Of a DNA stretch of 64,000 nucleotides, positions 19,425 to 55,184 are shown in pieces (the stretch's first letter is position 1; each line of letters opens with the position of its first letter). The notes below the pieces were generated by a model that was not told where the DNA came from, ran no database searches, and saw nothing but the letters and a program-made list of their open reading frames with translations. This stretch comes from Parcubacteria group bacterium Gr01-1014_8. Lineage in GTDB: Bacteria > Patescibacteriota > Minisyncoccia > Phycocordibacterales > UBA2100. The DNA lies in assembly GCA_007376385.1 (NCBI GenBank), contig VMGC01000002.1, forward strand, positions 96,001-160,000. The letters run 5' to 3'. Position numbers and translations under genes: made by a program.

Positions 19425-20194
19425 ATAAGAAACCGAAGAAAGCGAAAAAGGGAACGACGTGGGGCCACGTTGCGAATTGGTATCACGAACATGTCTCAGA
19501 GTCCGAAGATACCTATCATGAGCAAGTCATCAAGCCCGGGCTGCTGTCGGCTCTTGGCGGTCTGCGAGGTAAGCACGTGCTTGATGTAGCCTGCGGGCAA
19601 GGATTCTTTTCGCGCGCTCTTCAAAAAGAAGGAGCTCAGGTTACCGGAATTGATATAGCGCCGGAATTGATAGATATCGCGAAAAAGGCAGGTCCTGCTG
19701 ATATCGCATATGTTGTTGCGTCAGCAGATAGAATTCCTCTTTCAGATGTTACCTACGACATCGCCATCTGTGTGCTCGCGCTTCAAAATATCAAGAATCT
19801 TTCAGGAACGCTTGAACAAGTATCGAAGCTTTTGAAGAAGGGAGGCGTATTTGCGATAGTGTTGAATCATCCTGCCTTTCGCATCCCGCGGCGCTCTTCG
19901 TGGGGATATGATCCAGACATCAAAGTTCAGTTCCGCAGATTGGATGGGTACTTTTCGGAAAGTTCTCATATGATACAGATGCATCCCGGCTCTGATCCGA
20001 GTGCGACGACTCTTTCCTATCACCGCCCGCTTCAAACGTATGTGGCAGCGTTGGCAAAGCATGGTTTTTCCATCGTTGGTCTTGAAGAGTGGGTGTCGCA
20101 CCGCAAAAGCGAGAAAGGACCCCGCTCGGAAGCGGAAGATAGGTCTCGAAAAGAGTTTCCACTTTTCCTTATGTTGAAAGCGCGCAAAGACTGA
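19409..20194 (+). CDS. class I SAM-dependent methyltransferase
   Basis: VLDVACGQGFFSRAL...GIDIAPELI motif I. Confidence 0.75.
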   Translation: MRPRINKKPKKAKKGTTWGHVANWYHEHVSESEDTYHEQVIKPGLLSALGGLRGKHVLDVACGQGFFSRALQKEGAQVTGIDIAPELIDIAKKAGPADIAYVVASADRIPLSDVTYDIAICVLALQNIKNLSGTLEQVSKLLKKGGVFAIVLNHPAFRIPRRSSWGYDPDIKVQFRRLDGYFSESSHMIQMHPGSDPSATTLSYHRPLQTYVAALAKHGFSIVGLEEWVSHRKSEKGPRSEAEDRSRKEFPLFLMLKARKD

Positions 20195-20323
20195 TTGCTA
20201 AAAGGACAAAATATTCGTACCATCGAGTGCACTGCCGGACTAACCTCATGGTGGGATTGAAAAAAGAATTTGATTGCATATCACGCAGGGTCCGCAGGAA
20301 TCGTCGTTCTTTGCGCGCAGTGT

Positions 20324-20394
20324 TGCCGGATCGTCTAACGGTAGGACACTGCCCTTTGGAGGCAGGTATCTTGGTTCGATTCCAAGTCCGGCAA
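20324..20394 (+). tRNA. tRNA-Gln (anticodon TTG)
   Basis: Acceptor TGCCGGA/TCCGGCA (U1:A72 as in bacterial tRNA-Gln), anticodon loop CTTTGGA, T-arm CTTGG-TTCGATT-CCAAG; 71 nt. Confidence 0.8.
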
Positions 20395-20509
20395 CAATGT
20401 GCGCAAAGAGACGATAGGAGAGCCCTTTTGGAGAAATTCCGGCCGAAATTTTCTTGACACATACTGATCAGAGGTTACTCTTCGGTTATATCAGTTTACG
20501 AACATTTTT

Positions 20510-20935
20510 ATGTACAACCTCACCGTTACATCCGCGCTCCAGTTCAATGTGATCCTTGATAACGTCCCGGGGTCACTTGCGAAGATAGCAAAGGCCCTTG
20601 CCGGCGCTGGAGTCAATATAGAATCAGTAAGTCACACAGCCGAGGGAACTGGCGGAAAGGCAACACTACGGTTGGTTGCAGACGATCAAGCGGCGGCAAA
20701 GCAAGCTCTAACGAGTGCCGGTAATTCATTCACGGAAGAAGATATTCTTCTCATTACATGCCCGCAAAACAAACCAGGAACTCTTGCGGCTATCGCACAA
20801 GCTTTTGGTGATGCTGGGATCAATCTCGAGGATGTCTACTATTCTTCTTCGGCAACGCAGGCGAACACAGTCGTCTGTGTTCAGGTCAGCAAGGAAGATC
20901 TTGCAAAGGCGGGCGAGATTGCGAAGAGTCTCTAA
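20510..20935 (+). CDS. tandem ACT-domain protein
   Basis: Two repeats of the VILDNVPGSLAKIAKALAGAGVNIE-type ACT pattern. Confidence 0.6.
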   Translation: MYNLTVTSALQFNVILDNVPGSLAKIAKALAGAGVNIESVSHTAEGTGGKATLRLVADDQAAAKQALTSAGNSFTEEDILLITCPQNKPGTLAAIAQAFGDAGINLEDVYYSSSATQANTVVCVQVSKEDLAKAGEIAKSL

Positions 20936-20958
20936 AGAGACTGTGTTACACTGGGCGC

Positions 20959-21354
20959 ATGAAAGGATACGTTGCAAATATCGAAAAGGCTGCTCTTGAG
21001 AACGAATCGTTTCGGAAGGTGCTCTATACTGCAAAAAATTGCCAGCTTGTCGTGATGAGCTTGCGGCCGGGAGAGGATATAGGCGAGGAGGTTCATCAGC
21101 TTGACCAGTTTCTGCGGATCGAGTCTGGCGAAGGGAAGACAATTCTGGACGGTGTCGAGTACGACATTGCGGATGGCTCGGCGGCGGTTGTGCCTGCGGG
21201 AACAAAACACAACATACTGAACACATCCACTAACAAGAAGATGAAGATCTATTCGATCTATGCGCCGCCAAATCATCGCCGCGATGTTGTGCACGAGACG
21301 AAGCAACAGGCGGAGGAAGACGATGAACACTTTGACGGAATAACTACAGAATGA
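20959..21354 (+). CDS. cupin-domain protein
   Basis: Cupin two-motif pattern (G..EEVHQLDQF...AAVVPAGTKHNILN). Confidence 0.6.
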   Translation: MKGYVANIEKAALENESFRKVLYTAKNCQLVVMSLRPGEDIGEEVHQLDQFLRIESGEGKTILDGVEYDIADGSAAVVPAGTKHNILNTSTNKKMKIYSIYAPPNHRRDVVHETKQQAEEDDEHFDGITTE

Positions 21355-21358
21355 AGGT

Positions 21359-21607
21359 ATGTTGCCTATTTTGGTTCCTCGGCTCGGAATTGAAAATGAA
21401 TACACTTTCACTTCACTCGCAACGCTCGCCAATAAATATATGGAAAAGATAAAAATTGAACATCACACACTATCAGGAGGTCTCTGGATAGGGGCGTGGC
21501 TGTTCACGATCGGTTTTTTGCACCTAACATTTTGGAAAGGTGTTCTCGCCGTCGTGATATGGCCGTACTACCTCGGTGTTGCATTCGGCGGCTGGGTCCA
21601 CATATGA
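21359..21607 (+). CDS. small hypothetical membrane protein
   Basis: 82 aa with two hydrophobic segments; overlaps the start of the nirK-like ORF. Confidence 0.3.
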   Translation: MLPILVPRLGIENEYTFTSLATLANKYMEKIKIEHHTLSGGLWIGAWLFTIGFLHLTFWKGVLAVVIWPYYLGVAFGGWVHI

Positions 21608-22871
21608 AGTATTTGAGACAGTGCATTATTCTATGAGTCAAATAATTCAAGCGTGGTCGCTCATTTATTCCCTGATAATTCAGGGTTTTGGGCTTGTGCT
21701 CGCGGGAATCGCCGCCGTCATCTTTTTATACGTTGTATTGCGCAAGCATCATTCATTTCGAGATACCATGCTCCTTGGTATCTTTTTTGCTGGAGCGATG
21801 CTTTTCTTTTGGTTTCCGATAGGAGTTCCGAAAAATCTTACGTATCCGTTCGGCTTGACCACGTATGGTCCTGCAGAAGGTCCTTCGCTGCCCTTAAAGA
21901 ATGTTTTTACATTTTTTTGGCATTTAGACTCATTTGAACGCGTTTCTGATATCGCTCGTTCACCGCTTGATGTGCCGCCGCCAACCGGCAGAACCGAAGC
22001 ATCGGACGTTTCCATCGAACTCACAACAAAAGAAGTACTCTCAGAGATTGCGCCCGGTGTTTTGGTTAACTATTGGACGTTCGACGGGACTGTGCCAGGG
22101 CCAATGCTTCGCGTACGAGAGGGGGATACTGTCTCGCTTACCCTTCATAACGACCAGTCGAGCTTGCATATGCATAGCATAGACTTACATGCGGTAACGG
22201 GCCCGGGAGGAGGCGCGACGGTGACCGATGTGATGCCGGGGGAAAGTAAGACGATGCGGTTCAAGGCTTTGAATCCCGGGCTTTATATTTATCACTGCGC
22301 CCACCCGAATGTGGCAAACCACATGTCGCACGGCATGTACGGACTTATTTTGGTTGAGCCAAAAGACGGATTACCGCAGGTGGATAAAGAGCTGTATGTT
22401 GTGCAGGGGGAGTTCTATACCGCGGCAGAGCGGGGAACCAAGGGCCTTCAGGCCATGGATGCGGGAAAGTTGCTCGACGGTATTCCTGAGTACATCGTTT
22501 TCAACGGACGAACGGGAGCGATCTCAAAAGACCGCGTTGTTGTGACCCAGGGCGAAAAAGTGCGAATGTATGTAGGAAATGGCGGCGTAAATCTCGTGTC
22601 ATCATTCCATCTCATAGGCGAGATATTTGATACGGTCTATCCAGAAGCCGCAATGGGGAGTGAGCCGCACAAGAATGTGCAAAGCACGATTGTTCCGGCT
22701 GGCGGGGCAACCATTGTCGAATTTACGGCAGATGTGCCGGGCACGTATGTGTTAGTTGACCATGCGCTTGCACGATTGGATAAAGGTGCATGGGGCACGT
22801 TATCTATCGTCGGCGATGCGCGTCCAGATATATTTTTCGGGACGCCGAGCGACCATCCTTCTGGACACTAG
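21576..22871 (+). CDS. nirK: copper-containing nitrite reductase (NirK-type multicopper oxidase) with N-terminal transmembrane segment
   Basis: HMHSIDLHAVTGPGGGA (type-2 Cu His pair) and YIYHCAHPNVANHMSHGMYG (type-1 Cu C/H/M); two cupredoxin domains; 3 TM helices N-terminally. Confidence 0.75.
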   Translation: MLHSAAGSTYEVFETVHYSMSQIIQAWSLIYSLIIQGFGLVLAGIAAVIFLYVVLRKHHSFRDTMLLGIFFAGAMLFFWFPIGVPKNLTYPFGLTTYGPAEGPSLPLKNVFTFFWHLDSFERVSDIARSPLDVPPPTGRTEASDVSIELTTKEVLSEIAPGVLVNYWTFDGTVPGPMLRVREGDTVSLTLHNDQSSLHMHSIDLHAVTGPGGGATVTDVMPGESKTMRFKALNPGLYIYHCAHPNVANHMSHGMYGLILVEPKDGLPQVDKELYVVQGEFYTAAERGTKGLQAMDAGKLLDGIPEYIVFNGRTGAISKDRVVVTQGEKVRMYVGNGGVNLVSSFHLIGEIFDTVYPEAAMGSEPHKNVQSTIVPAGGATIVEFTADVPGTYVLVDHALARLDKGAWGTLSIVGDARPDIFFGTPSDHPSGH

Positions 22872-23422
22872 AGTATTATCTCTGTATTTGGGAGTTTAGG
22901 ACGGATGACCTCGAGATCTTGAGTAGAGATGTTATTTCCCGACAGGTCAAGTTTTTGTAAATTACGCAGGTTTCCAAGCTCATGCGGGATGCCTGTCAGT
23001 TGATTGTTCGATGCGTCCAGAACGCGCAATTTTGAAAGCTGGCCAAGCTCCGCAGGAAGTCCGGTCATTTTATTGTTGCTAATATCCAATACTTCGAGAT
23101 CTTGCAGATGGCGTATCTCTGCGGGGAGCGCCCCCTCGAGTTGATTATGTGATAGATCTAACTGTGTAAGGTACGTGAGTTCAAGGATCTCTTTTGGAAT
23201 GCTCGTAAGCCCCTCATCCGCGCGGTTCAATGTTCGCTGCATGGAAACATCCTCCGCCTTTTTGATAACAGAAGGAATGTCTACGCCAACTTTTTGTCCA
23301 GTTGTTCCGTAGTAATATGCACTCGCAGCAACGATGATGAGAACAAACACCAAAAGAAGTATTCGCATGCGCTCACTGTACTCCGATCGAGCGTTTCCGC
23401 AAGAAACCGGGAAAAGACGCAT
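22868..23422 (-). CDS. leucine-rich-repeat protein with N-terminal membrane anchor
   Basis: Repeats LxxLxxLDLSxNQLxGxxP (LTQLDLSHNQLEGALP, LEVLDISNNKMTGLP, LRVLDASNNQLTGIP, LQKLDLSGNNIS). Confidence 0.7.
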   Translation of the reverse strand: MRLFPVSCGNARSEYSERMRILLLVFVLIIVAASAYYYGTTGQKVGVDIPSVIKKAEDVSMQRTLNRADEGLTSIPKEILELTYLTQLDLSHNQLEGALPAEIRHLQDLEVLDISNNKMTGLPAELGQLSKLRVLDASNNQLTGIPHELGNLRNLQKLDLSGNNISTQDLEVIRPKLPNTEIIL

Positions 23423-23436
23423 GATATTCTTACCGA

Positions 23437-24004
23437 CGTGAAAGAAACAGTAGCAGTCATAGCGTCACTCCTTGCTATTGCGGGGAACATTCCGTATGTA
23501 CGGGATGTTGTTACTCGGCGCGTTGAACCTCATGCGTACACGTGGTTCGTTTGGTCCATAGTTTCCGGAGTGGTTTTTTTCGGTCAGCTCGCAAAAGGAG
23601 CGGGCGTCGGCGCGCTTCCTACGGCAGCATCGGAGATATTCACACTCATCATTTTTATGTTCTCGCTGAAATACGGCTTCAAGCACATTACACGGACAGA
23701 CACATTTTTTCTCGTTGCGGCGCTTCTTGGTCTCATACCGTGGGTACTGACAAAGGACCCGACGATTTCCGTTATCGTTGCTGTTTCAATTGATGTGATC
23801 GCGTTCATGCCGACCCTGCGAAAAACATGGGAAAAGCCGGACACAGAAACACCTATCCTGTACGGCGCGAACGTTATACGCCACATACTCGCTCTCTTTT
23901 CTATGCAAGCCTACAACATAGCGACGACATTGCATTCGATCGCAATGATCATAATGAACGCAATGATGACGTTGGTCGTTGTCGGATATAGAAAAAAGAA
24001 TTAA
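23437..24004 (+). CDS. hypothetical multi-pass membrane protein
   Basis: 5-6 hydrophobic helices; probable GTG start at 23437 to avoid overlapping the LRR gene. Confidence 0.5.
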
Positions 24005-24015
24005 TAACGACGGAA

Positions 24016-24435
24016 ATGAACAGTGCAATAGCAAATAGGATGAAGCAGGTGTCGTTACACGGACGTGCGCTTGCCCTGATCGCAGTTCTGTTTTTTCTTA
24101 TTCATACATGGGCCTACGTGAATGAGGTGTATCACAATGTCCCGCGTGTCGATGTCCCCATACACATACTGTTCGGCGTATGGCTCGCGCTCTTGCTTCT
24201 CCATCCTATATTTCGAGAACGCCGCCTTACGTTGCCTGCAATTTTTGGAGCAGTCATGGTCGTAGGAGTAGGATGGGAATTCCTGGAATATATTTACGAT
24301 ACCGTTCTTACGATCCCTCGAGGACTCCCAACTGCGCAACATGGTGTCGCAGAGACAATACGGGACCTGCTCTGCAATGGCACTGGAGCAGCCGTGACCC
24401 TAACGTTTTTTCGATCTAAGAAATATTTCTGGTAG
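24016..24435 (+). CDS. hypothetical membrane protein
   Basis: 139 aa with 3-4 predicted TM helices. Confidence 0.45.
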   Translation: MNSAIANRMKQVSLHGRALALIAVLFFLIHTWAYVNEVYHNVPRVDVPIHILFGVWLALLLLHPIFRERRLTLPAIFGAVMVVGVGWEFLEYIYDTVLTIPRGLPTAQHGVAETIRDLLCNGTGAAVTLTFFRSKKYFW

Positions 24436-45296: not shown

Positions 45297-47522
45297 ATGA
45301 GGCATATATTCTTAATCGTGCTTGCTGTCGCTTTTGCTGTATCTCTTGCAGCTTCAGTTTTTACGTTGATGCAAGTGAACAAAGAGACAGATGAGTTGTC
45401 GAAGAAGCTCAGGGAGAGGACGCTGCTTCTTGCGGATGGTCTTGCAGAGTCCGCGGCTCCTGCGTACGCGCGATATGCCACGAGTACGCTGGAAAAGTTG
45501 GCGAACACCTTTACGAATCGCGAGCGTCTCATCGGCCTTGCATTTTATGACACGCGCGGTAATAAAATTGCCGGTTCGAGCGGCGTCACAGATGAAATGC
45601 TGAAAAATGCGCCGATTCTCGATACATTCAATAGCACCGAGCCTGACGACGCTTTTGCAATTACCGAAGGGACGAGAAAATATTATTTCGCGCAACCACT
45701 CCACTCTGACGATGCCTATATTGGCTCGCTTGTACTTGTGCAGGATGCCAGTGATATCGATGTGGCAATGAGCAGGATATGGCGAGACACATTTCTGAAA
45801 CTTTTCGTATATTTTCTCCTTTTTGCCGTCGCCATCGCAGCCCTTGTCTACTTTGTGCTTTTCAAACCGCTATCGAATTTAGCTGAATCTATCCGCCAGG
45901 CGCGAATGAATAAAGATGCGCGTGCTCCTCAACCCTCGCACCACAATTTTTTTCTGCAACCTCTTGCGATGGAAGTCTCGAAACTTGCGTCTTCACTCGC
46001 GCAGGCACGAACTGCTGCAAGCGAAGAGGCGCGTATGCGCCTTGAAAAGATTGACACCCCTTGGACGGAGGAGAGGCTAAAGGAATTCATAAAGGCGTAT
46101 CTCAAGGATAGGCCTATCTATGTCGTTTCGAATCGAGAGCCCTACATACACTCCAAGGATCGCGGAGAGGTCACCTACTCGGTGCCTGCGAGCGGCATGG
46201 TGACAGCGCTTGAGTCTGTCATGGCGGCCTGCGGAGGGGAATGGCTCGCTCATGGCAGCGGAAATGCTGACAAAGAAATGGTCGATGCGGAGAGCAAGAT
46301 CCGTGTCCCACCAGATGAGCCGAAATATACCTTGAAGCGTATTTGGCTGAATCCAAAAGAGGTCAAGGGCTATTATGTCGGTTTCTCGAACGAGGCTCTG
46401 TGGCCGCTGTGTCATATAGCGCATACGAGGCCGACCTTCAGAAAGGAAGACTGGCTGATGTACAAGCGCGTGAACGGCAAGTTTGCTGAGGCGCTTCTTG
46501 CGGAATTAAAAGGCGTCGAGCGCCCCATAGTGTTGATACAAGATTTTCATCTTTCTCTTTTGCCGCGGATGATAAAGGAGTCGCGTCCGGACGCACAGGT
46601 CGGTCTTTTTTGGCACATACCCTGGCCGTCCGCAGAAGGCTTCAGTATCTGTCCTTGGAGAAAAGAGATACTGCAGGGAATGCTCGGCGCGGATATAATC
46701 GGTTTTCATACGCAGCAGTTCTGCAATAATTTCCTCGAAACTGTCGGAAAAGAGATCGAATCGCTTATCGATCTGGAGCAATTTGCTGTTACGAGCGATG
46801 AGCACACATCATTCATCAAGCCATTTCCTATAAGTATTTCGTTCACTGACGCAATGGAGGGAAAGACGTCGATAGCGCCTGATCGCGCTGCTCTTGAAGC
46901 GATGGACATTCGAACAGAGTTCGTCGGACTTGGCGTGGACAGGCTCGACTATACGAAGGGAATTCTTGAGCGATTCAGAGGGATCGAATTTTTTCTTGAC
47001 GCTCATCCGGATTTTTATAAACGATTTACGTTCTTGCAGGTCGCACCTCCGAGCCGCGAGGAATCGGAAAAGTATCGGGATTATGCAGTTGCCGTCGAGG
47101 CAGAAGCAGCCCGAGTGAATGCAAAATTCAGAAAGAATGGATGGCAGCCCATTCGTTTTGAAAAAAGGCATTTTTCGCACTCGGAACTTGTGCCGCTCTA
47201 CCAAACAGCGAACTTTTGTCTTGTGACATCTCTGCACGACGGCATGAACTTGGTCGCCAAAGAATACGTGGCAGCAAGAGATGATGAAGCAGGAGCCCTC
47301 ATCTTGAGCAAATTCACCGGCGCTTCTCGCGATTTCAATCGCGGTGCGCTTATCGTCAATCCCTATAGCGCCGAAGAGGTCTCGGAAGCTATCCACCGTG
47401 CTCTCGTCATGCCCGCCACTGAGCAGCATCGTAGAATGAGATCCATGCGAACATCAATACGAGACTACAATGTGTATCGCTGGGCGGCTGAATTTATAAA
47501 AGCAGTTGCAGCGCTCCGATAA
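45297..47522 (+). CDS. otsA: trehalose-6-phosphate synthase-like glycosyltransferase (GT20) fused to an N-terminal two-TM sensor-like domain
   Basis: C-terminal 480 aa match the OtsA core (PIYVVSNREPY...WHIPWPS...DIIGFHT...). N-terminal 250 aa have TM1 - ~150-aa extracytoplasmic domain - TM2 - coiled linker. Confidence 0.75.
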   Translation: MRHIFLIVLAVAFAVSLAASVFTLMQVNKETDELSKKLRERTLLLADGLAESAAPAYARYATSTLEKLANTFTNRERLIGLAFYDTRGNKIAGSSGVTDEMLKNAPILDTFNSTEPDDAFAITEGTRKYYFAQPLHSDDAYIGSLVLVQDASDIDVAMSRIWRDTFLKLFVYFLLFAVAIAALVYFVLFKPLSNLAESIRQARMNKDARAPQPSHHNFFLQPLAMEVSKLASSLAQARTAASEEARMRLEKIDTPWTEERLKEFIKAYLKDRPIYVVSNREPYIHSKDRGEVTYSVPASGMVTALESVMAACGGEWLAHGSGNADKEMVDAESKIRVPPDEPKYTLKRIWLNPKEVKGYYVGFSNEALWPLCHIAHTRPTFRKEDWLMYKRVNGKFAEALLAELKGVERPIVLIQDFHLSLLPRMIKESRPDAQVGLFWHIPWPSAEGFSICPWRKEILQGMLGADIIGFHTQQFCNNFLETVGKEIESLIDLEQFAVTSDEHTSFIKPFPISISFTDAMEGKTSIAPDRAALEAMDIRTEFVGLGVDRLDYTKGILERFRGIEFFLDAHPDFYKRFTFLQVAPPSREESEKYRDYAVAVEAEAARVNAKFRKNGWQPIRFEKRHFSHSELVPLYQTANFCLVTSLHDGMNLVAKEYVAARDDEAGALILSKFTGASRDFNRGALIVNPYSAEEVSEAIHRALVMPATEQHRRMRSMRTSIRDYNVYRWAAEFIKAVAALR

Positions 47523-50109: not shown

Positions 50110-50679
50110 ATGCAATACGGAATTATTGGTCTCATTGTGCTGGCAGTTCTTGGGGGAGGTTTCTATGTTTTTCTAGGCTCATCGCAGGATACGGCAATGG
50201 TGGAGAAAGAAAAGATGGAGAAGGATGCAATGATGCAGCAAGAGGTAATGGAAATGGAAAAGAAAGCTACGATGGAAAAGGAAGCAATGGAAAAAGAAGT
50301 AATGATGAAGGAAGAGGCGATGAAAAAAGATGACTCGATGATGGAGAAAGGTGATGCAATGATGGCGCACGGAGGCACCTATGAGGCGTATGCTCCTGAA
50401 AAGATCTCATGGGCAAAAGATGGTGACGTTGTTCTATTTTTCCGCGCATCGTGGTGCCCAACCTGCAGGGCAGTTGATGCGGACATTCGCTCGCATCTCT
50501 CCTCAATACCTAAGGATCTAACCATTCTCGACGTGAATTACGATAACTCGTCAGCACTGAAACAAAAATACGGCGTGACCTACCAGCACACCTTTGTGCA
50601 AGTGGATGCTTCGGGAAATCAGATCACGAAATGGAGTGGAAGCCCAACTCTTGCGGCACTTGTTTCTAATGTAAAATAG
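50110..50679 (+). CDS. membrane-anchored thioredoxin-fold protein with Met/Glu/Lys-rich repeat region
   Basis: WCPTC active site; about 55 aa of MEKEAM-type repeats after the N-terminal TM. Confidence 0.65.
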   Translation: MQYGIIGLIVLAVLGGGFYVFLGSSQDTAMVEKEKMEKDAMMQQEVMEMEKKATMEKEAMEKEVMMKEEAMKKDDSMMEKGDAMMAHGGTYEAYAPEKISWAKDGDVVLFFRASWCPTCRAVDADIRSHLSSIPKDLTILDVNYDNSSALKQKYGVTYQHTFVQVDASGNQITKWSGSPTLAALVSNVK

Positions 50680-50683
50680 AAAC

Positions 50684-52450
50684 ATGGTTTTGCTCATCCT
50701 CTCGTTCGTAGCAGGTGTACTAACAGTACTTGCACCTTGTATACTTCCGCTTCTGCCCGTCATCATTGGCGGCTCACTTGATCCGATGCGACACGTGCGT
50801 TTAAAGCATGCCACAACGGTTGTGCTTTCGCTCGGTGTTTCCGTTATTGTCTTTACGTTTCTTTTGAAAGTGAGCACTGCTCTTATATCTGTCCCGCCGC
50901 AGGTTTGGACGTATCTTTCGGGAGGCATTGTCTTTTTTTTCGGATTGACCTTACTTTTTCCCGGACTCTGGGAACATGTGCCGTTCATCGCAAAACTTAG
51001 CAGCCGTTCGAACCGGCTGGTTTCGACTGGCTATCAGAGGAAGAGTTTTTGGGGAGACATTTTGATAGGCGCAGCACTCGGACCGGTATTTGCGACGTGT
51101 TCTCCCACATATTTCATAGTTCTCGCGACAGTATTGCCGCAAAGTCCTGTCCTCGGCTTTGTGTATGTATTGGCGTACGTTCTCGGACTTTGTCTGATGT
51201 TGCTTCTTATCGGTATCGTCGGCCAGCGTCTTGCGGATAGCCTCGGATTTGCTTCTGATCCGCACGGAAGTTTCAAGCGCATACTTGGCGTCATATTCAT
51301 GATAGTCGGGCTCGTGATCATTATGGGCTTCGATAAGAAATTTCAGATCAAGCTATTGGAGTGGGGTATATTCGATATTACCAAAGTGGAGCAGCGGCTG
51401 TTGCAACTCACTGATCCGAATGCAAAAGGACTTGTTCCGAGCCAATCCATTGCCATTTTGGATGAAGAAATGCGCATCGCGCAGAAAGAGAGGCTGTACG
51501 AACGAGCGCCAGAAATTCAAAATCCCGCTGGCTATGTGAACACTGGCGGCAGACCTGTCACCATCGGTGAATTCCGCGGGAAAAAAGTCGTGCTTCTCGA
51601 CATTTGGACCTACAGCTGCATAAATTGCCAGAGAACCATTCCCTACCTTAAGGCATGGCACGAGACGTACAATGATCAAGGATTACAGATAATCGGTATA
51701 CATACGCCGGAATTTGCGTTCGAGAAGGACGCAAAGAATGTCGAATGGGCAGTTCGGCAATTCGGGATCACGTATCCAAGTGTTCTGGATAACGATTATG
51801 AGACGTGGAAAGCACTCGGTAATAATTACTGGCCGCGAAAATATCTCGTGGACATCGATGGGTTCATTGTATACGACCATATTGGTGAGGGAAATTACGA
51901 GGAAACTGAAGCAGCGATCCAGAGGGCTCTGCAGGAGAGGGCGATGGTGGTGGGTAGTGAAATGCCTGGTAAAAAGATCGTCGCGGAAGAGATCCCTCAA
52001 GCTGATCTATCGGGAGTGCGTTCGCCGGAAACGTATTTTGGAGCTTTGCGAAACGAGAGTTTAGCCAATGGTGATCCGCAGACCATCGGTGTTGAAACGT
52101 ATATACTGCCAGAAAATATCATAGGAAATGCGCTCTATCTGGAAGGGATATGGGATTTGACCCCGGAATACGCGGGATCGAAGGGAAGGACAAAGATAGT
52201 CTACAAATATAATTCGCGGGATGTATACCTTGTGGCGAGTAGCGACAAAGGAGTGAAAATAACTGTCCTTCGAGATGGGAAGCCCGTTGGCGAATTTGCG
52301 GGTGCAGATATTGACCAGACAACAAGCACCGGGACGATCAAAGAAAACAAGCTGTACAAATTGGTGCATGACGATGAGCCAGGACAACATCTACTTGAAA
52401 TAGTCATAGAAGGCGAGGGGGTAAAGGCGTACGCGTTCACATTCGGTTGA
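50684..52450 (+). CDS. DipZ-like protein: CcdA/DsbD transmembrane domain + thioredoxin (CINC) + C-terminal beta-rich domain
   Basis: CcdA-type TM core with two conserved Cys-containing helices; LLDIWTYSCINCQRT Trx motif; about 200-aa C-terminal domain. Confidence 0.75.
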   Translation: MVLLILSFVAGVLTVLAPCILPLLPVIIGGSLDPMRHVRLKHATTVVLSLGVSVIVFTFLLKVSTALISVPPQVWTYLSGGIVFFFGLTLLFPGLWEHVPFIAKLSSRSNRLVSTGYQRKSFWGDILIGAALGPVFATCSPTYFIVLATVLPQSPVLGFVYVLAYVLGLCLMLLLIGIVGQRLADSLGFASDPHGSFKRILGVIFMIVGLVIIMGFDKKFQIKLLEWGIFDITKVEQRLLQLTDPNAKGLVPSQSIAILDEEMRIAQKERLYERAPEIQNPAGYVNTGGRPVTIGEFRGKKVVLLDIWTYSCINCQRTIPYLKAWHETYNDQGLQIIGIHTPEFAFEKDAKNVEWAVRQFGITYPSVLDNDYETWKALGNNYWPRKYLVDIDGFIVYDHIGEGNYEETEAAIQRALQERAMVVGSEMPGKKIVAEEIPQADLSGVRSPETYFGALRNESLANGDPQTIGVETYILPENIIGNALYLEGIWDLTPEYAGSKGRTKIVYKYNSRDVYLVASSDKGVKITVLRDGKPVGEFAGADIDQTTSTGTIKENKLYKLVHDDEPGQHLLEIVIEGEGVKAYAFTFG

Positions 52451-52508: not shown

Positions 52509-54464
52509 ATGGAATCCGCACGAGCCGAGAAAATACAAAAATCACAAGATGCCGATCTGTCAACTCAACCTGCAGCGGAACCTAAGTCAGTCGGAGATGA
52601 TCAATCTGGCATAGATACGGCTCGAAATGAGGAGGAAAGGAATCGTGAAGAACGAGTTCAGCGAGCCGAGACAATGTCCAAGATGTTGGATGTGTACGTG
52701 GCGAACAGAACTCCATCGTTAGTAGAGGAGGCCCTTAAAGGGATGCCAGAAACAGAGGTCGCTGTAAGAGAGGCGCGTGCGCAAGAAGTCAAAGAGCAGT
52801 CCGAAAGAATAAAGCAATTTTTCGTCAGTGTTGACGCTGGGAAAAGAGAGGAAACGCCGCTAACAAGAATGGCTCAAATTTATGAGTATCTTGATGCTCC
52901 GGAAAATCCTAGCGAACAAGCTGAATTTGAGACTGCGATGTCAGCTCATATGCAAGAATTAGTGGAACGTGCGTTTGATCAGCACCTAGACAACCCTGAG
53001 CAGTATGTGTCTCATGGATTCGATCATTCCCTCAACGTTGCCGATTATGCCAAAAATATAATTGATTTGAATGATGTAATTGTCGACCAGACCGCCCAGA
53101 AATACGGCATAAGTGCGAAGGAGGCAAAATTTATGCTGGAAAATGTTGCACTTTTTCACGACTGCGGCTACCCTCATGTTGGCGCAAAGGCAAAAGCTGT
53201 GCACGGCATTGCCGGTGCAGATCTTATCTCGACCCCGAAAATGCAGGGAATATTTCGGAATCTCATTAGGACCCCGGAGGCTAATTTGGACCTGCTTAGC
53301 CACGATCTGAGGGATTCAATACTTTTCCATTCAGCGGATAAAGTTGAGAATCAATTTTCAGCAAAAATACGGACTACACGCGGGACCTTTTTGTCGGAAG
53401 GTAGGGACGTGTATACGGTCATATCAACTTTTAATGATCCCTCGGAGAATCCGGTTGGAGTTGCGCGAGATATTTTGGAGATTGAGGTTGCTGATGAAGA
53501 AACAAAATTGGACATCGAAGCGCAACTTGCATTGGCGGCCGCTGATACAGCAAGAAAAACAGGTCTGCCACCCGAATCAATTCCGGTTACTGTAGGAGGC
53601 TCCCGATTTAAGGGCAGATACACAGATCTTGCGAGGGCGAAGGATAATCGTTTGGGTTTGGAGTACTCAGAAATCGATGCTTTGCAGACACCATTGCATG
53701 CGATCATTCGATTGGCAGACAATATGGACATGCGCCGCAATCGATTTTCTGCTGTACAGAGGGAGCCAGCGTTTCGTGCAACCTATCAAGCGTTTAGCGA
53801 TGGGGGACAGACGAGCAGAGCCCTTGTAACTTTAGAGGCCGAAAGTAAATTATTCAAAGGTCGCTTGGCAAGTGCGGGTTCAGAGACAGAAAAAGCTCAG
53901 CTTCTGGCAGACTCACCGCAGCTCGTTCAGTCGCAGTTTCAAGCGCTACTGGCGGAAAATCAAAACCTTGTAACAGTCACAACGGAAGAAATAGCGTCGT
54001 TGCAGCAACCTTCAGACGCGGAGAAACTTTGGAGAAAAGGCATAGCGGAACGGATCATCAACAGCGAAGATCAGGTGTTATCGCCGGAGAATAAAAGAAA
54101 AATAATGAGCATGGCTCTTGCGCAAGATTCACAGGGAATGCGGCATTTTGGCGGTTGCGAAGCGGTAACAGATGTCCGAATGGAACGTTTCGGTGAGCGC
54201 GGAGCTGAAGTTTCAATTGTCGTTGTTACAGCAGATAGGGGGCAATTTGAACAGCTCAATCGCACGCGTGTTCAGGATTCAAGCCTCGATAAAGAGGGGA
54301 ACGTCAGCACTGTCGAGCTTGGCATAGGTGAGTATCAAATTTGGCGCGCGCGTGAGGCTTACAAAAGTATCTCGGTTGGTGGGAAAAAGATCGGCATAAG
54401 GGTTCAGGACGAGAATGGCTTGGAACTCCAAACGACTTTTGAACAATTTAGAGAGGAGAAATAG
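52509..54464 (+). CDS. large hypothetical protein with central HD-like motif
   Basis: VSHGFDHSLNVADYAKN...ALFHDCGYPHVG; acidic, coiled-coil-rich N-terminus; 651 aa. Confidence 0.5.
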   Translation: MESARAEKIQKSQDADLSTQPAAEPKSVGDDQSGIDTARNEEERNREERVQRAETMSKMLDVYVANRTPSLVEEALKGMPETEVAVREARAQEVKEQSERIKQFFVSVDAGKREETPLTRMAQIYEYLDAPENPSEQAEFETAMSAHMQELVERAFDQHLDNPEQYVSHGFDHSLNVADYAKNIIDLNDVIVDQTAQKYGISAKEAKFMLENVALFHDCGYPHVGAKAKAVHGIAGADLISTPKMQGIFRNLIRTPEANLDLLSHDLRDSILFHSADKVENQFSAKIRTTRGTFLSEGRDVYTVISTFNDPSENPVGVARDILEIEVADEETKLDIEAQLALAAADTARKTGLPPESIPVTVGGSRFKGRYTDLARAKDNRLGLEYSEIDALQTPLHAIIRLADNMDMRRNRFSAVQREPAFRATYQAFSDGGQTSRALVTLEAESKLFKGRLASAGSETEKAQLLADSPQLVQSQFQALLAENQNLVTVTTEEIASLQQPSDAEKLWRKGIAERIINSEDQVLSPENKRKIMSMALAQDSQGMRHFGGCEAVTDVRMERFGERGAEVSIVVVTADRGQFEQLNRTRVQDSSLDKEGNVSTVELGIGEYQIWRAREAYKSISVGGKKIGIRVQDENGLELQTTFEQFREEK

Positions 54465-54479
54465 CGTACGCATAAAAGC

Positions 54480-55184
54480 ATGACCAACGAAGCAGATCAA
54501 AGTGGAAAGCATCACATGTCGGAGACGCCTGATTCTGTGCGTTGGAAACAAAGTCTCGCAGGCAAATTGTGTTCACGATTGGAAAAAATTGCAAAAGACA
54601 CAGGTAAAACATTCCGAATGCTCGGGGCAGGGTCATCTGTCGAGGTGTTTGAGTTTGGCGGGGAACGAGCGGAGTTAGTAAAGCACATGGAGAACAGTAC
54701 TGTTGGGGACGTAGGCGGTTCTATACGAAATTACGTAGAATCGTGGGACTACAAACGATTGCCTTGGTGGCGAGACGCACTCATGAGTGAACAGGCACCG
54801 TATGAGTTACTCGACATTCCCGTATCTCGCGCGGCGAGAGATGCCGGGGTTGAGAGGTGGCGAGAGCTTTTTATTCCCGCACAAGTTGTCAATACCTTTG
54901 ATCTTGTTACGCCTGACAATTGGAGAGAAGTGGAGGCAATGAAGGAATGGGTTCGATCTTCGATTACGAACATTCTAGGTCGTATCGTTCGTCCTGATTA
55001 CTCCGTCACATTCTTTGAGAACTCTTTGAGACTCGCGCCTCTCACAGAGGGGGCAATTCTAAGTAAAACAGTCGATAATGAAACATATAGCAGTTTGCTA
55101 AAAAAGATCGAGATCATCGCACCCGCGTTCGAACTGGAATATGCGCGTAAACGTGACAAGCGAAGCAAAACATCTACATCTTGA
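54480..55184 (+). CDS. hypothetical protein
   Basis: 234-aa ORF directly after the 651-aa gene. Confidence 0.4.
   Translation: MTNEADQSGKHHMSETPDSVRWKQSLAGKLCSRLEKIAKDTGKTFRMLGAGSSVEVFEFGGERAELVKHMENSTVGDVGGSIRNYVESWDYKRLPWWRDALMSEQAPYELLDIPVSRAARDAGVERWRELFIPAQVVNTFDLVTPDNWREVEAMKEWVRSSITNILGRIVRPDYSVTFFENSLRLAPLTEGAILSKTVDNETYSSLLKKIEIIAPAFELEYARKRDKRSKTSTS

What the first reader, a model, noticed from the sequence alone, without database searches (positions are those of the whole stretch)
20959..23422. Membrane-anchored NirK-type copper nitrite reductase with cupin, small membrane protein and LRR neighbour
NirK with all type-1 and type-2 copper ligands is preceded by about 110 residues forming 3 TM helices, an unusual anchor. 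It lies in a locus with a cupin, an 82-aa membrane protein and a convergent membrane-anchored LRR protein.

In a genome that otherwise looks reduced and fermentative (no respiratory chain genes in this window), a lone denitrification-type enzyme is noteworthy. It may serve nitrite detoxification or NO signalling.
Basis: partly seen in the sequence, partly recalled or inferred. Interest (0 to 1): 0.5.

Follow-up and report, generated by a model that had tools for sequence, protein, structure and literature searches.

The report
Membrane-anchored copper nitrite reductase of Parcubacteria
The gene is a real, intact copper nitrite reductase (NirK) held on the outside of the cell membrane by a two-helix anchor, but this enzyme family is already annotated and published for these tiny groundwater bacteria, and its neighbouring genes here are not a conserved partnership.

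Summary
The four ORFs exist as described. The central gene (best start ATG 21633, 412 aa, not the 431-aa GTG ORF) is an AniA-like (class II) NirK. It scores 329.6 bits against the curated equivalog TIGR02376 (cut-off 296.3), is about 55% identical to Neisseria AniA, and keeps every type-1 Cu, type-2 Cu and catalytic residue.

The N-terminal extension is a hairpin of two membrane helices, not three. A conserved Pro/Gly-rich tether of about 40 residues follows it, and the topology places the enzyme outside the cytoplasmic membrane.

The window comes from the MAG "Parcubacteria group bacterium Gr01-1014_8", where the protein is already named copper-containing nitrite reductase. The same full-length architecture occurs in at least 78 of the 80 best species-level relatives. 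NirK in otherwise fermentative Parcubacteria, with conserved Cu ligands and the detoxification/NO-signalling interpretation, was published in 2017, 2021 and 2024.

The cupin, small membrane protein and LRR protein lie within 6 kb of nirK in only 5, 3 and 2 of 80 related loci, so they are not a conserved module. No electron donor or nor/nos gene was found in the window.

Verdict: correct identification of an already known feature, of low interest. The family-wide hairpin anchor and tether appear undescribed but are a minor point.

The parts
21633..22871 (+). nirK: copper-containing nitrite reductase, 412 aa (AniA-like, class II), with stop codon
   Evidence: TIGR02376 329.6 bits against a cut-off of 296.3. 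AniA 1kbv/5tb7 E~1e-100 and about 55% identity. The AF2 core matches NirK structures with TM-score 0.90-0.94 normalised to the target. 100% identical to P0001, 'Copper-containing nitrite reductase [Parcubacteria group bacterium Gr01-1014_8]'.
21651..21740 (+). TM helix 1 of the N-terminal hairpin (residues 7-36), predicted to run from outside to inside
   Evidence: Kyte-Doolittle maximum 2.61. AF2 helix 2-39. Small-residue positions G20, A24 and A28 are conserved.
21765..21827 (+). TM helix 2 of the hairpin (residues 45-65), predicted to run from inside to outside. It follows the basic loop RKHHSFRD (residues 37-44).
   Evidence: Kyte-Doolittle maximum 2.13. AF2 helix 42-59. R37 and S41 are at least 90% conserved. 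Relatives with one extra N-terminal TM helix fit this topology.
21828..21941 (+). Conserved Pro/Gly-rich tether (residues 66-103) between the anchor and the catalytic core. It has no counterpart in solved NirK structures.
   Evidence: Residues 66-110 average 62% identity to the window protein across 76 family members, against 43-48% for the TM helices and loop. P66, Y71, P72, T77, G79, P80, G83, P84, L86, P87, N90, F94 and E102 are at least 90% conserved. AF2 pLDDT is below 50 for residues 61-86. PDB alignments begin at residues 104-111.
21942..22832 (+). Catalytic core of two cupredoxin domains (residues 104-400). T1Cu ligands: H181 (22173), C222 (22296), H230 (22320), M235 (22335). T2Cu ligands: H186 (22188), H221 (22293), H377 (22761). 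Catalytic residues: D184 (22182), H326 (22608), I328 (22614).
   Evidence: Pfam Cu-oxidase_3 and Cu-oxidase_2. Residues aligned to AniA. All ligands invariant in 76 of 76 family members, I328 in 74 of 76. Codon positions verified by translation.
22833..22868 (+). Variable C-terminal tail ending in a nearly invariant His (H412)
   Evidence: The tail averages 37% identity, but the last residue is His in 74 of 76 sequences. Its function was not tested.
20959..21354 (+). Small cupin (131 aa) upstream on the same strand. Function unknown; not a conserved NirK partner.
   Evidence: PF07883. Best solved relative is BH2720 (2oa2), a protein with no assigned function, E=2e-27. Found within 6 kb of nirK in 5 of 80 other loci, in varying position and orientation.
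21359..21607 (+). Small membrane ORF (82 aa as an ORF). The conserved core is the C-terminal part of about 55 aa, so the likely true start is ATG 21440.
   Evidence: No Pfam or NCBIfam hit. 363 homologues, most of those listed 53-57 aa long, covering 55-70% of the query at 70-88% identity. Genomic contexts elsewhere vary and lack nirK. Near nirK in 3 of 80 loci.
22868..23422 (-). Convergent LRR protein with one membrane anchor (184 aa). It overlaps the nirK stop codon region by 4 nt.
   Evidence: LRR_4, LRR_8 and LRR_1. One hydrophobic segment at residues 15-42. Near nirK in only 2 of 80 other loci, both close relatives.
20510..20935 (+). Tandem ACT-domain protein (141 aa). It is the first gene of the tightly spaced same-strand run ACT-cupin-smp-nirK and is listed for context only.
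   Evidence: Pfam ACT, two copies. Intergenic gaps of 23, 4 and 25 nt. Not found next to nirK in other species.

Best explanation
A native, intact class II (AniA-like) copper nitrite reductase of a Parcubacteria (CPR) bacterium. Shown: two cupredoxin domains carry a complete type-1 Cu site (H181, C222, H230, M235), a complete type-2 Cu site (H186, H221, and H377 supplied by the neighbouring subunit in known NirK trimers) and the catalytic Asp184/His326/Ile328. An N-terminal extension of about 100 residues consists of two hydrophobic helices separated by a basic loop, followed by a conserved Pro/Gly-rich tether. Inferred: the helices form an N-out/C-out hairpin in the cytoplasmic membrane. The enzyme therefore sits as a trimer on the outer face of a cell without an outer membrane, in place of the signal peptide or lipid anchor of characterised NirKs. 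There it reduces nitrite to NO, with electrons entering at T1Cu and passing through the Cys-His bridge to T2Cu. The electron donor is not encoded in this window and remains unknown; a cupredoxin encoded elsewhere was proposed for related genomes. The physiological role is unresolved: nitrite detoxification, NO production within a symbiosis, or an accessory step in community denitrification. The cupin, small membrane protein and LRR protein are neighbours by local genome arrangement, possibly co-transcribed, and are not conserved partners.
For: Family assignment: TIGR02376 above its curated cut-off, Pfam Cu-oxidase_3 and Cu-oxidase_2. PDB: AniA E=5e-100 and 338 bits, against about 143 bits for class I NirKs; about 55% identity. 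AF2 model pLDDT 78; the core superposes on NirK structures with TM-score 0.90-0.94 normalised to the target. Ligands invariant in 76 of 76 family members. Anchor: hydropathy, AF2 hairpin, basic RKHHSxR loop with R37 and S41 at least 90% conserved, extra N-terminal TM helix in distant relatives. Native gene: identical gene and neighbours on contigs of 200, 130 and 13.7 kb; GC and GC3 match the window. 204 species-level genomes encode a relative, and 78 of the best 80 match over the full length. Literature: Danczak et al. 2017 (PMC5581439) reported nirK in Kaiserbacteria and Harrisonbacteria with conserved T1/T2 ligands and a separate CPR clade. He et al. 2021 (PMC7906910) and PMC11188291 confirm it is common in groundwater CPR. 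Neighbours are not conserved.
Against: No activity, copper content, trimer state or localisation was measured for any CPR NirK. Topology rests on hydropathy, the positive-inside rule and a monomer AF2 model whose tether has pLDDT below 50. No electron donor was found in the window, so turnover in vivo is unproven. The tight spacing of ACT-cupin-smp-nirK (gaps 23, 4 and 25 nt) and the recurrence of the same cupin family near nirK in 5 of 80 loci leave room for a loose functional link.
Confidence: 0.9

Rival explanations
1. The cupin, the small membrane protein, NirK and the LRR protein form a dedicated functional module, for example with the cupin or small membrane protein acting in copper delivery, electron entry or NO handling for NirK.
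For: Same-strand spacing of 23, 4 and 25 nt suggests co-transcription, and no convincing terminator lies between the genes. The same cupin family (61-68% identity) recurs within 6 kb of nirK in 5 of 80 other loci: L005, L016, L018, L050 and L076. That is more than the roughly one expected for a random gene. The cupin-smp pair is also adjacent in L005.
Against: 75 of 80 related loci have no cupin, 77 have no smp and 78 have no LRR protein within 6 kb. Where the cupin is present, its position and side vary. In L005 a B12/RNR cluster separates cupin-smp from nirK. smp homologues elsewhere sit in unrelated contexts without nirK. The cupin's closest solved relative, BH2720, has no assigned function.
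Confidence: 0.08
2. It is a laccase-like or other multicopper-oxidase paralogue, not a nitrite reductase.
For: Weak secondary hits to CopA, laccase and CueO models, as expected for any cupredoxin-domain protein.
Against: Those hits score 37-54 bits against cut-offs of 480-560, whereas the NirK equivalog scores 329.6 against 296.3. The protein has the two-domain NirK architecture. The NirK-specific catalytic Asp, His and Ile are invariant. There is no trinuclear-cluster HxH pair pattern.
Confidence: 0.02
3. The gene is a binning contaminant or a very recent horizontal acquisition that is not part of the organism's biology.
For: PMC11188291 suggests nirK was gained by horizontal transfer in some groundwater Parcubacteria. 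Its presence is patchy across CPR.
Against: The gene is embedded in a 200-kb contig between dnaX, dus and serS on one side and proline-biosynthesis genes on the other. GC3 is 0.52 against a window mean of 0.51. The closest 120 protein clusters and the 80 best loci all have the CPR-type full-length form. Danczak et al. found a distinct CPR clade and argued against recent transfer.
Confidence: 0.03
4. The hairpin and conserved tether are more than an anchor. They would be a CPR-specific functional element, such as a docking or electron-entry site for a membrane partner, or a spacer that presents the enzyme at the contact with a host cell.
For: The tether region is more conserved (62% identity) than the TM helices (43-48%), with 13 residues of the tether (66-103) at least 90% conserved. 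It has no counterpart in solved NirKs. No donor gene was found nearby.
Against: The extension has no conserved Cys, His or Met that could bind a cofactor. AF2 gives it low confidence. Conservation may only reflect packing in the trimer. Its N-terminal sequence matched only short proteins (73-279 aa); the nine inspected are NirK N-terminal fragments, and none showed a different intact domain.
Confidence: 0.1

Closest known systems
AniA, the class II copper nitrite reductase of Neisseria gonorrhoeae (PDB 1kbv, 5tb7, 5ue6)
   Same: Two-cupredoxin-domain core, about 55% identical over 293 aligned residues. Identical T1Cu, T2Cu and catalytic residues. Membrane-attached on the extracytoplasmic side.
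   Different: AniA is a lipoprotein tethered to the outer membrane by a lipid-modified Cys and a flexible linker (my own knowledge). The window protein has a two-helix transmembrane hairpin and a conserved Pro/Gly-rich tether of about 40 residues. The organism is presumed to lack an outer membrane.
Parcubacteria/CPR NirK clade described by Danczak et al. 2017 (Microbiome 5:112; PMC5581439)
   Same: Same protein family. Close homologues (80% identical) come from Kaiserbacteria, one of the two phyla in that study. Conserved T1/T2 ligands, a lone denitrification gene in otherwise fermentative genomes, and the same candidate roles.
   Different: Nothing in kind. That paper trimmed unaligned ends and did not describe the N-terminal hairpin and tether. 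It proposed cupredoxin plus NDH-II or an Nqo-like complex as the donor path; none of these is in this window.
Three- and four-domain NirKs with a fused cupredoxin or cytochrome c (Hyphomicrobium denitrificans 2dv6/6tfd, Ralstonia pickettii 3ziy, Bradyrhizobium 6the)
   Same: Same class II core, 315-335 bits. These too carry an extra N- or C-terminal extension on the core.
   Different: Their extensions are redox domains that feed electrons. The extension here has no cofactor-binding residues and is a membrane anchor.

Membership tests
Copper-containing nitrite reductase NirK (TIGR02376 equivalog) | Whole-protein score above the curated equivalog cut-off | tested here: met
   329.6 bits against a cut-off of 296.3, E=2e-98, model positions 5-320 of 326
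Copper-containing nitrite reductase NirK (TIGR02376 equivalog) | Two cupredoxin (Greek-key beta-barrel) domains | tested here: met
   Pfam Cu-oxidase_3 and Cu-oxidase_2. The AF2 core superposes on NirK structures with TM-score 0.90-0.94 normalised to the target.
Copper-containing nitrite reductase NirK (TIGR02376 equivalog) | Type-1 Cu ligands His-Cys-His-Met | tested here: met
   H181, C222, H230 and M235 align to the AniA ligand positions. Invariant in 76 of 76. Codons verified.
Copper-containing nitrite reductase NirK (TIGR02376 equivalog) | Type-2 Cu ligands: three His, one from the adjacent subunit | tested here: met
   H186, H221 and H377 present and invariant in 76 of 76
Copper-containing nitrite reductase NirK (TIGR02376 equivalog) | Catalytic Asp and His (plus the gating Ile) at the T2 site | tested here: met
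   D184 and H326 invariant in 76 of 76, I328 in 74 of 76
Copper-containing nitrite reductase NirK (TIGR02376 equivalog) | Homotrimeric assembly with T2Cu at subunit interfaces | not testable with these tools
   Only a monomer was modelled.
Copper-containing nitrite reductase NirK (TIGR02376 equivalog) | Nitrite to NO activity | not testable with these tools
   Requires an enzyme assay. Danczak et al. describe NirK function in Parcubacteria only as putative, and none of the papers read reports an assay.
Class II (AniA-like) NirK subgroup | Closer to AniA and the multi-domain NirK cores than to class I (Achromobacter/Alcaligenes) enzymes | tested here: met
   306-339 bits to AniA and to the Hyphomicrobium, Pseudoalteromonas, Ralstonia and Bradyrhizobium NirKs, against 135-143 bits to class I enzymes. 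Foldseek shows 49-53% identity to the former and 28-32% to the latter.
Extracytoplasmic, membrane-anchored enzyme | N-terminal TM segments with a topology that places the catalytic domain outside | tested here: inconclusive
   Two hydrophobic helices, a basic loop between them, and three-TM variants in relatives with a basic N-terminus. All fit a catalytic domain outside the membrane, but this is prediction only.
Complete denitrification pathway | nar/nap, nor and nos genes accompany nirK | tested here: not met
   None found in the 64-kb window or as a recurrent neighbour in 80 related loci. The rest of the genome was not searched.
Conserved cupin-smp-nirK-LRR gene cluster | The neighbours co-occur with nirK across related genomes | tested here: not met
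   Cupin in 5 of 80, smp in 3 of 80 and LRR in 2 of 80 loci within 6 kb. Order and side vary.
Multi-domain NirK with a fused electron-donor domain | An extra cupredoxin or cytochrome c domain with its metal or haem ligands | tested here: not met
   The N-terminal 100 residues have no Pfam domain and no conserved Cys, His or Met. AF2 shows only two helices and a coil.

The most novel reading that the evidence does not exclude
The family-wide two-helix hairpin and the strongly conserved Pro/Gly-rich tether (YPFG..TYGP..GP.LP..N...FF) could be a CPR-specific functional module rather than a passive anchor. It might be the site where an as yet unknown membrane or host-derived donor delivers electrons to NirK in cells that lack quinones and cytochromes. 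In about a quarter of related genomes the enzyme might also be controlled by a four-cysteine ArsR-type sensor encoded directly upstream. That would address the open question of how, and why, fermentative CPR bacteria run a nitrite reductase.
Probability: 0.1. Interest if true: 0.55.

Novelty: already known. Interest (0 to 1): 0.2.

Why it matters
NirK is one of the few redox or 'respiratory-type' enzymes in the otherwise fermentative Parcubacteria. It bears on whether these ultra-small symbionts take part in groundwater nitrogen loss or use NO in their interactions with hosts. That question has been posed since 2017, and this window adds no new kind of evidence to it.

The practical gains are three. 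The start codon and the topology (two TM helices, tether, catalytic domain outside) are corrected. The window's gene neighbours are shown to be no guide to function. And in relatives the more recurrent neighbours are an ArsR-type regulator, a B12-dependent ribonucleotide reductase cluster and copper-homeostasis genes.

Tried and rejected
1. GTG 21576 as the start codon (431 aa) was rejected. The public annotation and about 120 homologue clusters support ATG 21633. Neither start has an obvious Shine-Dalgarno sequence.

2. Three TM helices were rejected for this protein. They are seen only in distant relatives.

3. The N-terminal 112 residues were searched against 1.84 billion cluster representatives. 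There were 23 hits, all short proteins of 73-279 aa. The nine inspected are truncated NirK N-termini, one of them apparently chimeric. Full-length family members did not appear. I suspect this is because clustering at 50% identity represents them by NirKs without this N-terminus. The search therefore shows no fusion to other domains but cannot bound the taxonomic spread.

4. A conserved electron donor next to nirK was sought by clustering all ORFs of 80 related loci. No cupredoxin or cytochrome family recurred.

5. The small-membrane-protein family was followed into three other genomes. It showed no link to nirK and no function.

6. The sigma-70 promoter and terminator scan of 20100-24100 was uninformative: 0 promoter-like sites against 5.3 expected, and terminator-like hits at the level of the shuffled controls.

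7. I recalled that Castelle et al. 2017 (PMC5220378) reported NirK. The paper does not mention it, so it is not cited for that.

8. A literature search for a described TM anchor of CPR NirK found nothing relevant.
Full report
**What is in the sequence.** The region holds a tight same-strand run on the + strand:
- an ACT-domain gene, 20510-20935;
- a 131-aa cupin, 20959-21354 (PF07883);
- an 82-aa hydrophobic ORF, 21359-21607, with no family hit;
- the NirK ORF, which ends at 22871.

Intergenic gaps are 23, 4 and 25 nt. A convergent 184-aa protein (22868-23422, minus strand) has one hydrophobic segment followed by leucine-rich repeats. It overlaps the end of nirK by 4 nt.

**Identity of the central gene.** The protein scores 329.6 bits against NCBIfam TIGR02376, "copper-containing nitrite reductase". 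This is an equivalog model with a cut-off of 296.3. The protein carries Pfam Cu-oxidase_3 and Cu-oxidase_2.

Its best solved relatives are Neisseria gonorrhoeae AniA (E=5e-100, 338 bits) and the cores of the Hyphomicrobium, Pseudoalteromonas, Ralstonia and Bradyrhizobium multi-domain NirKs. Class I enzymes score only about 140 bits. Identity to AniA is about 55% over 293 aligned positions.

An AlphaFold2 model (mean pLDDT 78) superposes on NirK crystal structures with TM-scores of 0.90-0.94 normalised to the target. About 300 residues align; the first 100 or so have no counterpart.

In numbering from ATG 21633:
- type-1 Cu ligands are H181, C222, H230 and M235;
- type-2 Cu ligands are H186, H221 and H377;
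- the catalytic residues are D184, H326 and I328.

All align to the AniA positions. The ligands are invariant in 76 of 76 family members taken from related genomes, and I328 in 74 of 76. I verified the codon coordinates by translation. This is a bona fide class II NirK by every sequence criterion.

**Start codon and anchor.** The public record for this exact protein is 412 aa (P0001, 100% identity). About 120 homologue clusters of 405-420 aa align from the Met at 21633. The 19 extra residues are not hydrophobic.

The extension before the NirK core is about 100 residues long:
- two hydrophobic segments, residues 7-36 and 45-65, modelled as helices 2-39 and 42-59 forming a hairpin;
- a short basic loop between them, RKHHSFRD, with R37 and S41 at least 90% conserved;
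- a tether, residues 66-103, rich in conserved Pro, Gly and aromatic residues.

There are two TM helices, not three. The positive-inside rule puts the loop in the cytoplasm and both ends outside. More distant relatives (P0128, P0132, P0135) carry one additional N-terminal TM helix preceded by basic residues. That gives the same outcome, with the catalytic domain outside. This topology is inferred, not shown.

The extension has no conserved Cys, His or Met, so it cannot bind a redox cofactor. It is an anchor, unlike the fused cupredoxin or cytochrome domains of three-domain NirKs. Across 76 family members the tether region (62% mean identity to the window protein) is more conserved than the TM helices (43-48%) and close to the core (70%). 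That hints at a structural role in the trimer, which I could not test.

**Where it comes from and how common it is.** The 100% hit is [quoted passage not shown] on a 200-kb contig. The same gene with the same neighbours is found on a 130-kb ENA contig and a 13.7-kb Logan contig. These may be re-assemblies of the same data.

The flanking genes are ordinary CPR housekeeping genes: topA, dprA, serS, dus, dnaX and proline biosynthesis. GC is even across the window. The gene's GC3 of 0.52 matches the window mean of 0.51 +/- 0.05. Contamination is excluded.

A scan of one genome per species found 204 genomes that encode a relative. The best 80 come from Kaiser-, Yonath-, Nomura-, Zambryski-, Moranii-, Harrison- and Doudnabacteria and from unnamed Paceibacterota. 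In 78 of the 80 the match starts at residues 1-14, so it includes the anchor. The hairpin-anchored form is therefore the norm for this clade.

**Already known.**
- Danczak et al. 2017 (PMC5581439) reported nirK in Kaiserbacteria and Harrisonbacteria and in public CPR genomes. They showed conserved T1/T2 ligands and a distinct CPR clade. They proposed cupredoxin plus NDH-II or an Nqo-like complex as the electron path. They also discussed detoxification, a symbiotic role and energy conservation, and concluded that the role is questionable.
- He et al. 2021 (PMC7906910) found nirK in 19 CPR genomes.
- PMC11188291 calls it common in groundwater CPR and suggests NO as a toxic or signalling molecule.

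I found no paper that describes the TM hairpin. Danczak et al. trimmed the unaligned ends.

**The neighbours.** I searched the 80 related loci (6 kb on each side) with the window's proteins.

| Neighbour | Loci with it, of 80 | Which loci |
|---|---|---|
| Cupin | 5 | L005, L016, L018, L050, L076; side and distance vary |
| Small membrane protein | 3 | L005, L009, L026 |
| LRR protein | 2 | L005, L018 |

In L005, a close relative (NirK 83% identical), cupin-smp lies 5.2 kb upstream of nirK. A cluster of DUF6580, DUF4430, cobalamin adenosyltransferase and class II ribonucleotide reductase separates them. The window's adjacency looks like that synteny with the cluster removed.

The cupin's closest solved relative is Bacillus halodurans BH2720 (2oa2), a protein with no assigned function.

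The small membrane protein belongs to a family of 363 detected members. Most of those listed are 53-57 aa long and 70-88% identical over the C-terminal hydrophobic part, so the true start here is probably ATG 21440. Some members come from MAGs labelled Acidobacteria and Burkholderiales. Three other genomic contexts differ from each other and lack nirK.

The neighbours may be co-transcribed with nirK here, but they are not a conserved functional module. The fivefold recurrence of the cupin is the only weak hint otherwise.

**What does recur next to this NirK.** I clustered all ORFs of the related loci.

| Recurrent neighbour | Loci, of 80 |
|---|---|
| ~120-aa ArsR-family HTH protein with conserved CxxC and CxxxC motifs | 25 (22 of them 0-25 bp upstream, same strand) |
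| Divergent B12-dependent ribonucleotide reductase | 18 |
| ABC transporter ATPase | 16 |
| P-type ATPase (copper-type assignment is my reading of its N-terminal sequence) | 9 |
| DUF305 | 7 |
| DsbA-like protein | 7 |
| CsoR-type repressor | 5 |

None of these is in the window. No cupredoxin or cytochrome recurs.

**Rest of the window.** Pfam scans, together with the precomputed annotation, show the following:
- central carbon metabolism: aldolase, fructose bisphosphatase, and glucose-6-phosphate and 6-phosphogluconate dehydrogenases by Pfam; enolase and phosphoglycerate mutase read from their N-terminal sequences only;
- amino-acid biosynthesis, trehalose-phosphate synthase, a GH18 enzyme and RelA/SpoT;
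- a thioredoxin plus a DsbD/CcdA-redoxin fusion.

There is no respiratory complex, quinone or cytochrome gene, cupredoxin, nor or nos among the ORFs scanned. This fits the "reduced, fermentative" impression, for this window only. About 20 further ORFs were not scanned; I judged them from their N-terminal sequences.

**Mechanism.**
- Shown: an intact NirK catalytic apparatus and an N-terminal pair of hydrophobic helices, conserved across the clade.
- From established NirK enzymology (my own knowledge): a homotrimer in which an external donor reduces T1Cu, the electron passes through the Cys222-His221 bridge to T2Cu at the subunit interface, and nitrite is protonated by way of Asp184 and His326 and released as NO.
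- Inferred here: the enzyme is held on the outer face of the cytoplasmic membrane by an N-out/C-out hairpin and a tether of about 40 residues. These replace the signal peptide or lipid anchor of characterised NirKs, in a cell presumed to lack an outer membrane.
- Unknown: the electron donor and the physiological purpose.

**Verdict.** The identification is correct and the feature is real. Both the gene family and its puzzling presence in Parcubacteria are already annotated and published. The particular neighbours are incidental, and the anchor details needed correction. Novelty: already known. Interest: low (0.2). The most novel reading not excluded, at about 10%, is that the conserved hairpin and tether form a CPR-specific docking or electron-entry element.

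Noticed in passing
Related loci, e.g. L009:4630-4992, L006:5633-5995, L008:3348-3704 (not in the window): An ArsR-family HTH protein of about 120 aa (PF01022/PF12840) carries conserved cysteine motifs LCPxCF and AHCFExCxIPY. It recurs in 25 of 80 related loci and lies 0-25 bp upstream of nirK on the same strand in 22 of them. It is a candidate metal-, redox- or NO-responsive regulator of nirK. It is absent from this window.
   Followed up: partly
Related loci, e.g. L005:1679-5577, L020:3232-5559, L042:2739-3281: A B12-dependent (class II) ribonucleotide reductase with an ATP-cone lies divergently, typically 260-440 bp upstream of nirK, in most of the 18 of 80 loci that carry it. It is often accompanied by cobalamin adenosyltransferase, DUF6580 and DUF4430. 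In L005 this cluster sits between cupin-smp and nirK. The reason for the linkage is unknown.
   Followed up: partly
Related loci L016:7622-10601, L018:3574-5927, L036:3391-5923, L050:1587-5985: Metal-homeostasis-type genes cluster near nirK in relatives: P-type ATPase (9 of 80), DUF305 (7 of 80), CsoR-type repressor (5 of 80), DsbA-like protein (7 of 80). A second ORF of about 500 aa, which looks like a multicopper oxidase from its N-terminal sequence and its clustering with NirK but was not scanned against Pfam, lies directly upstream of nirK in L050 and L036.
   Followed up: partly
window 21359-21607 (conserved core from about 21440): The small membrane ORF belongs to a family with no Pfam or NCBIfam hit. 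Most members listed are 53-57 aa long. They are unusually conserved (70-88% identity) across CPR and MAGs labelled Acidobacteria and Burkholderiales, in varied genomic contexts. Such conservation in so small a protein is unexplained.
   Followed up: partly
window 22866-22868 (NirK residue 412): The NirK tail is variable, but its very last residue is His in 74 of 76 family members, usually as ...GH at the C-terminus, often with another His 4-6 residues earlier. This may relate to copper acquisition. It was not tested.
   Followed up: no
window 50110-52450: A membrane-anchored thioredoxin (189 aa) is followed by a 588-aa fusion of a DsbD/CcdA transmembrane domain, a redoxin domain and a Thioredoxin_10 domain. 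This is a system that moves reducing equivalents across the membrane in a genome without cytochromes.
   Followed up: no
window 52509-55184: Two consecutive ORFs of 651 aa and 234 aa have no Pfam match. The first begins with a charged, low-complexity stretch.
   Followed up: no
window 45297-47522: A trehalose-6-phosphate synthase (GT20) domain occupies residues 275-737. It is preceded by an N-terminal extension of about 270 residues that begins with a hydrophobic segment. This is an unusual membrane-anchored architecture for this enzyme.
   Followed up: no
window 20100-24100: No sigma-70-like promoter match was found, where 5.3 +/- 2.6 are expected from shuffled sequence. This fits either one long transcription unit or non-canonical promoters in this lineage.
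   Followed up: no
Loci L006-L082 record titles: Many MAGs that carry this Parcubacteria-type full-length NirK are labelled 'uncultured Candidatus Saccharibacteria', and a few 'Gammaproteobacteria' or 'Bdellovibrionales' (L036, L044, L052). L036's gene content includes a CsoR-like gene and small unannotated ORFs. These labels are probably automated misassignments rather than evidence for the family outside Parcubacteria.
   Followed up: partly
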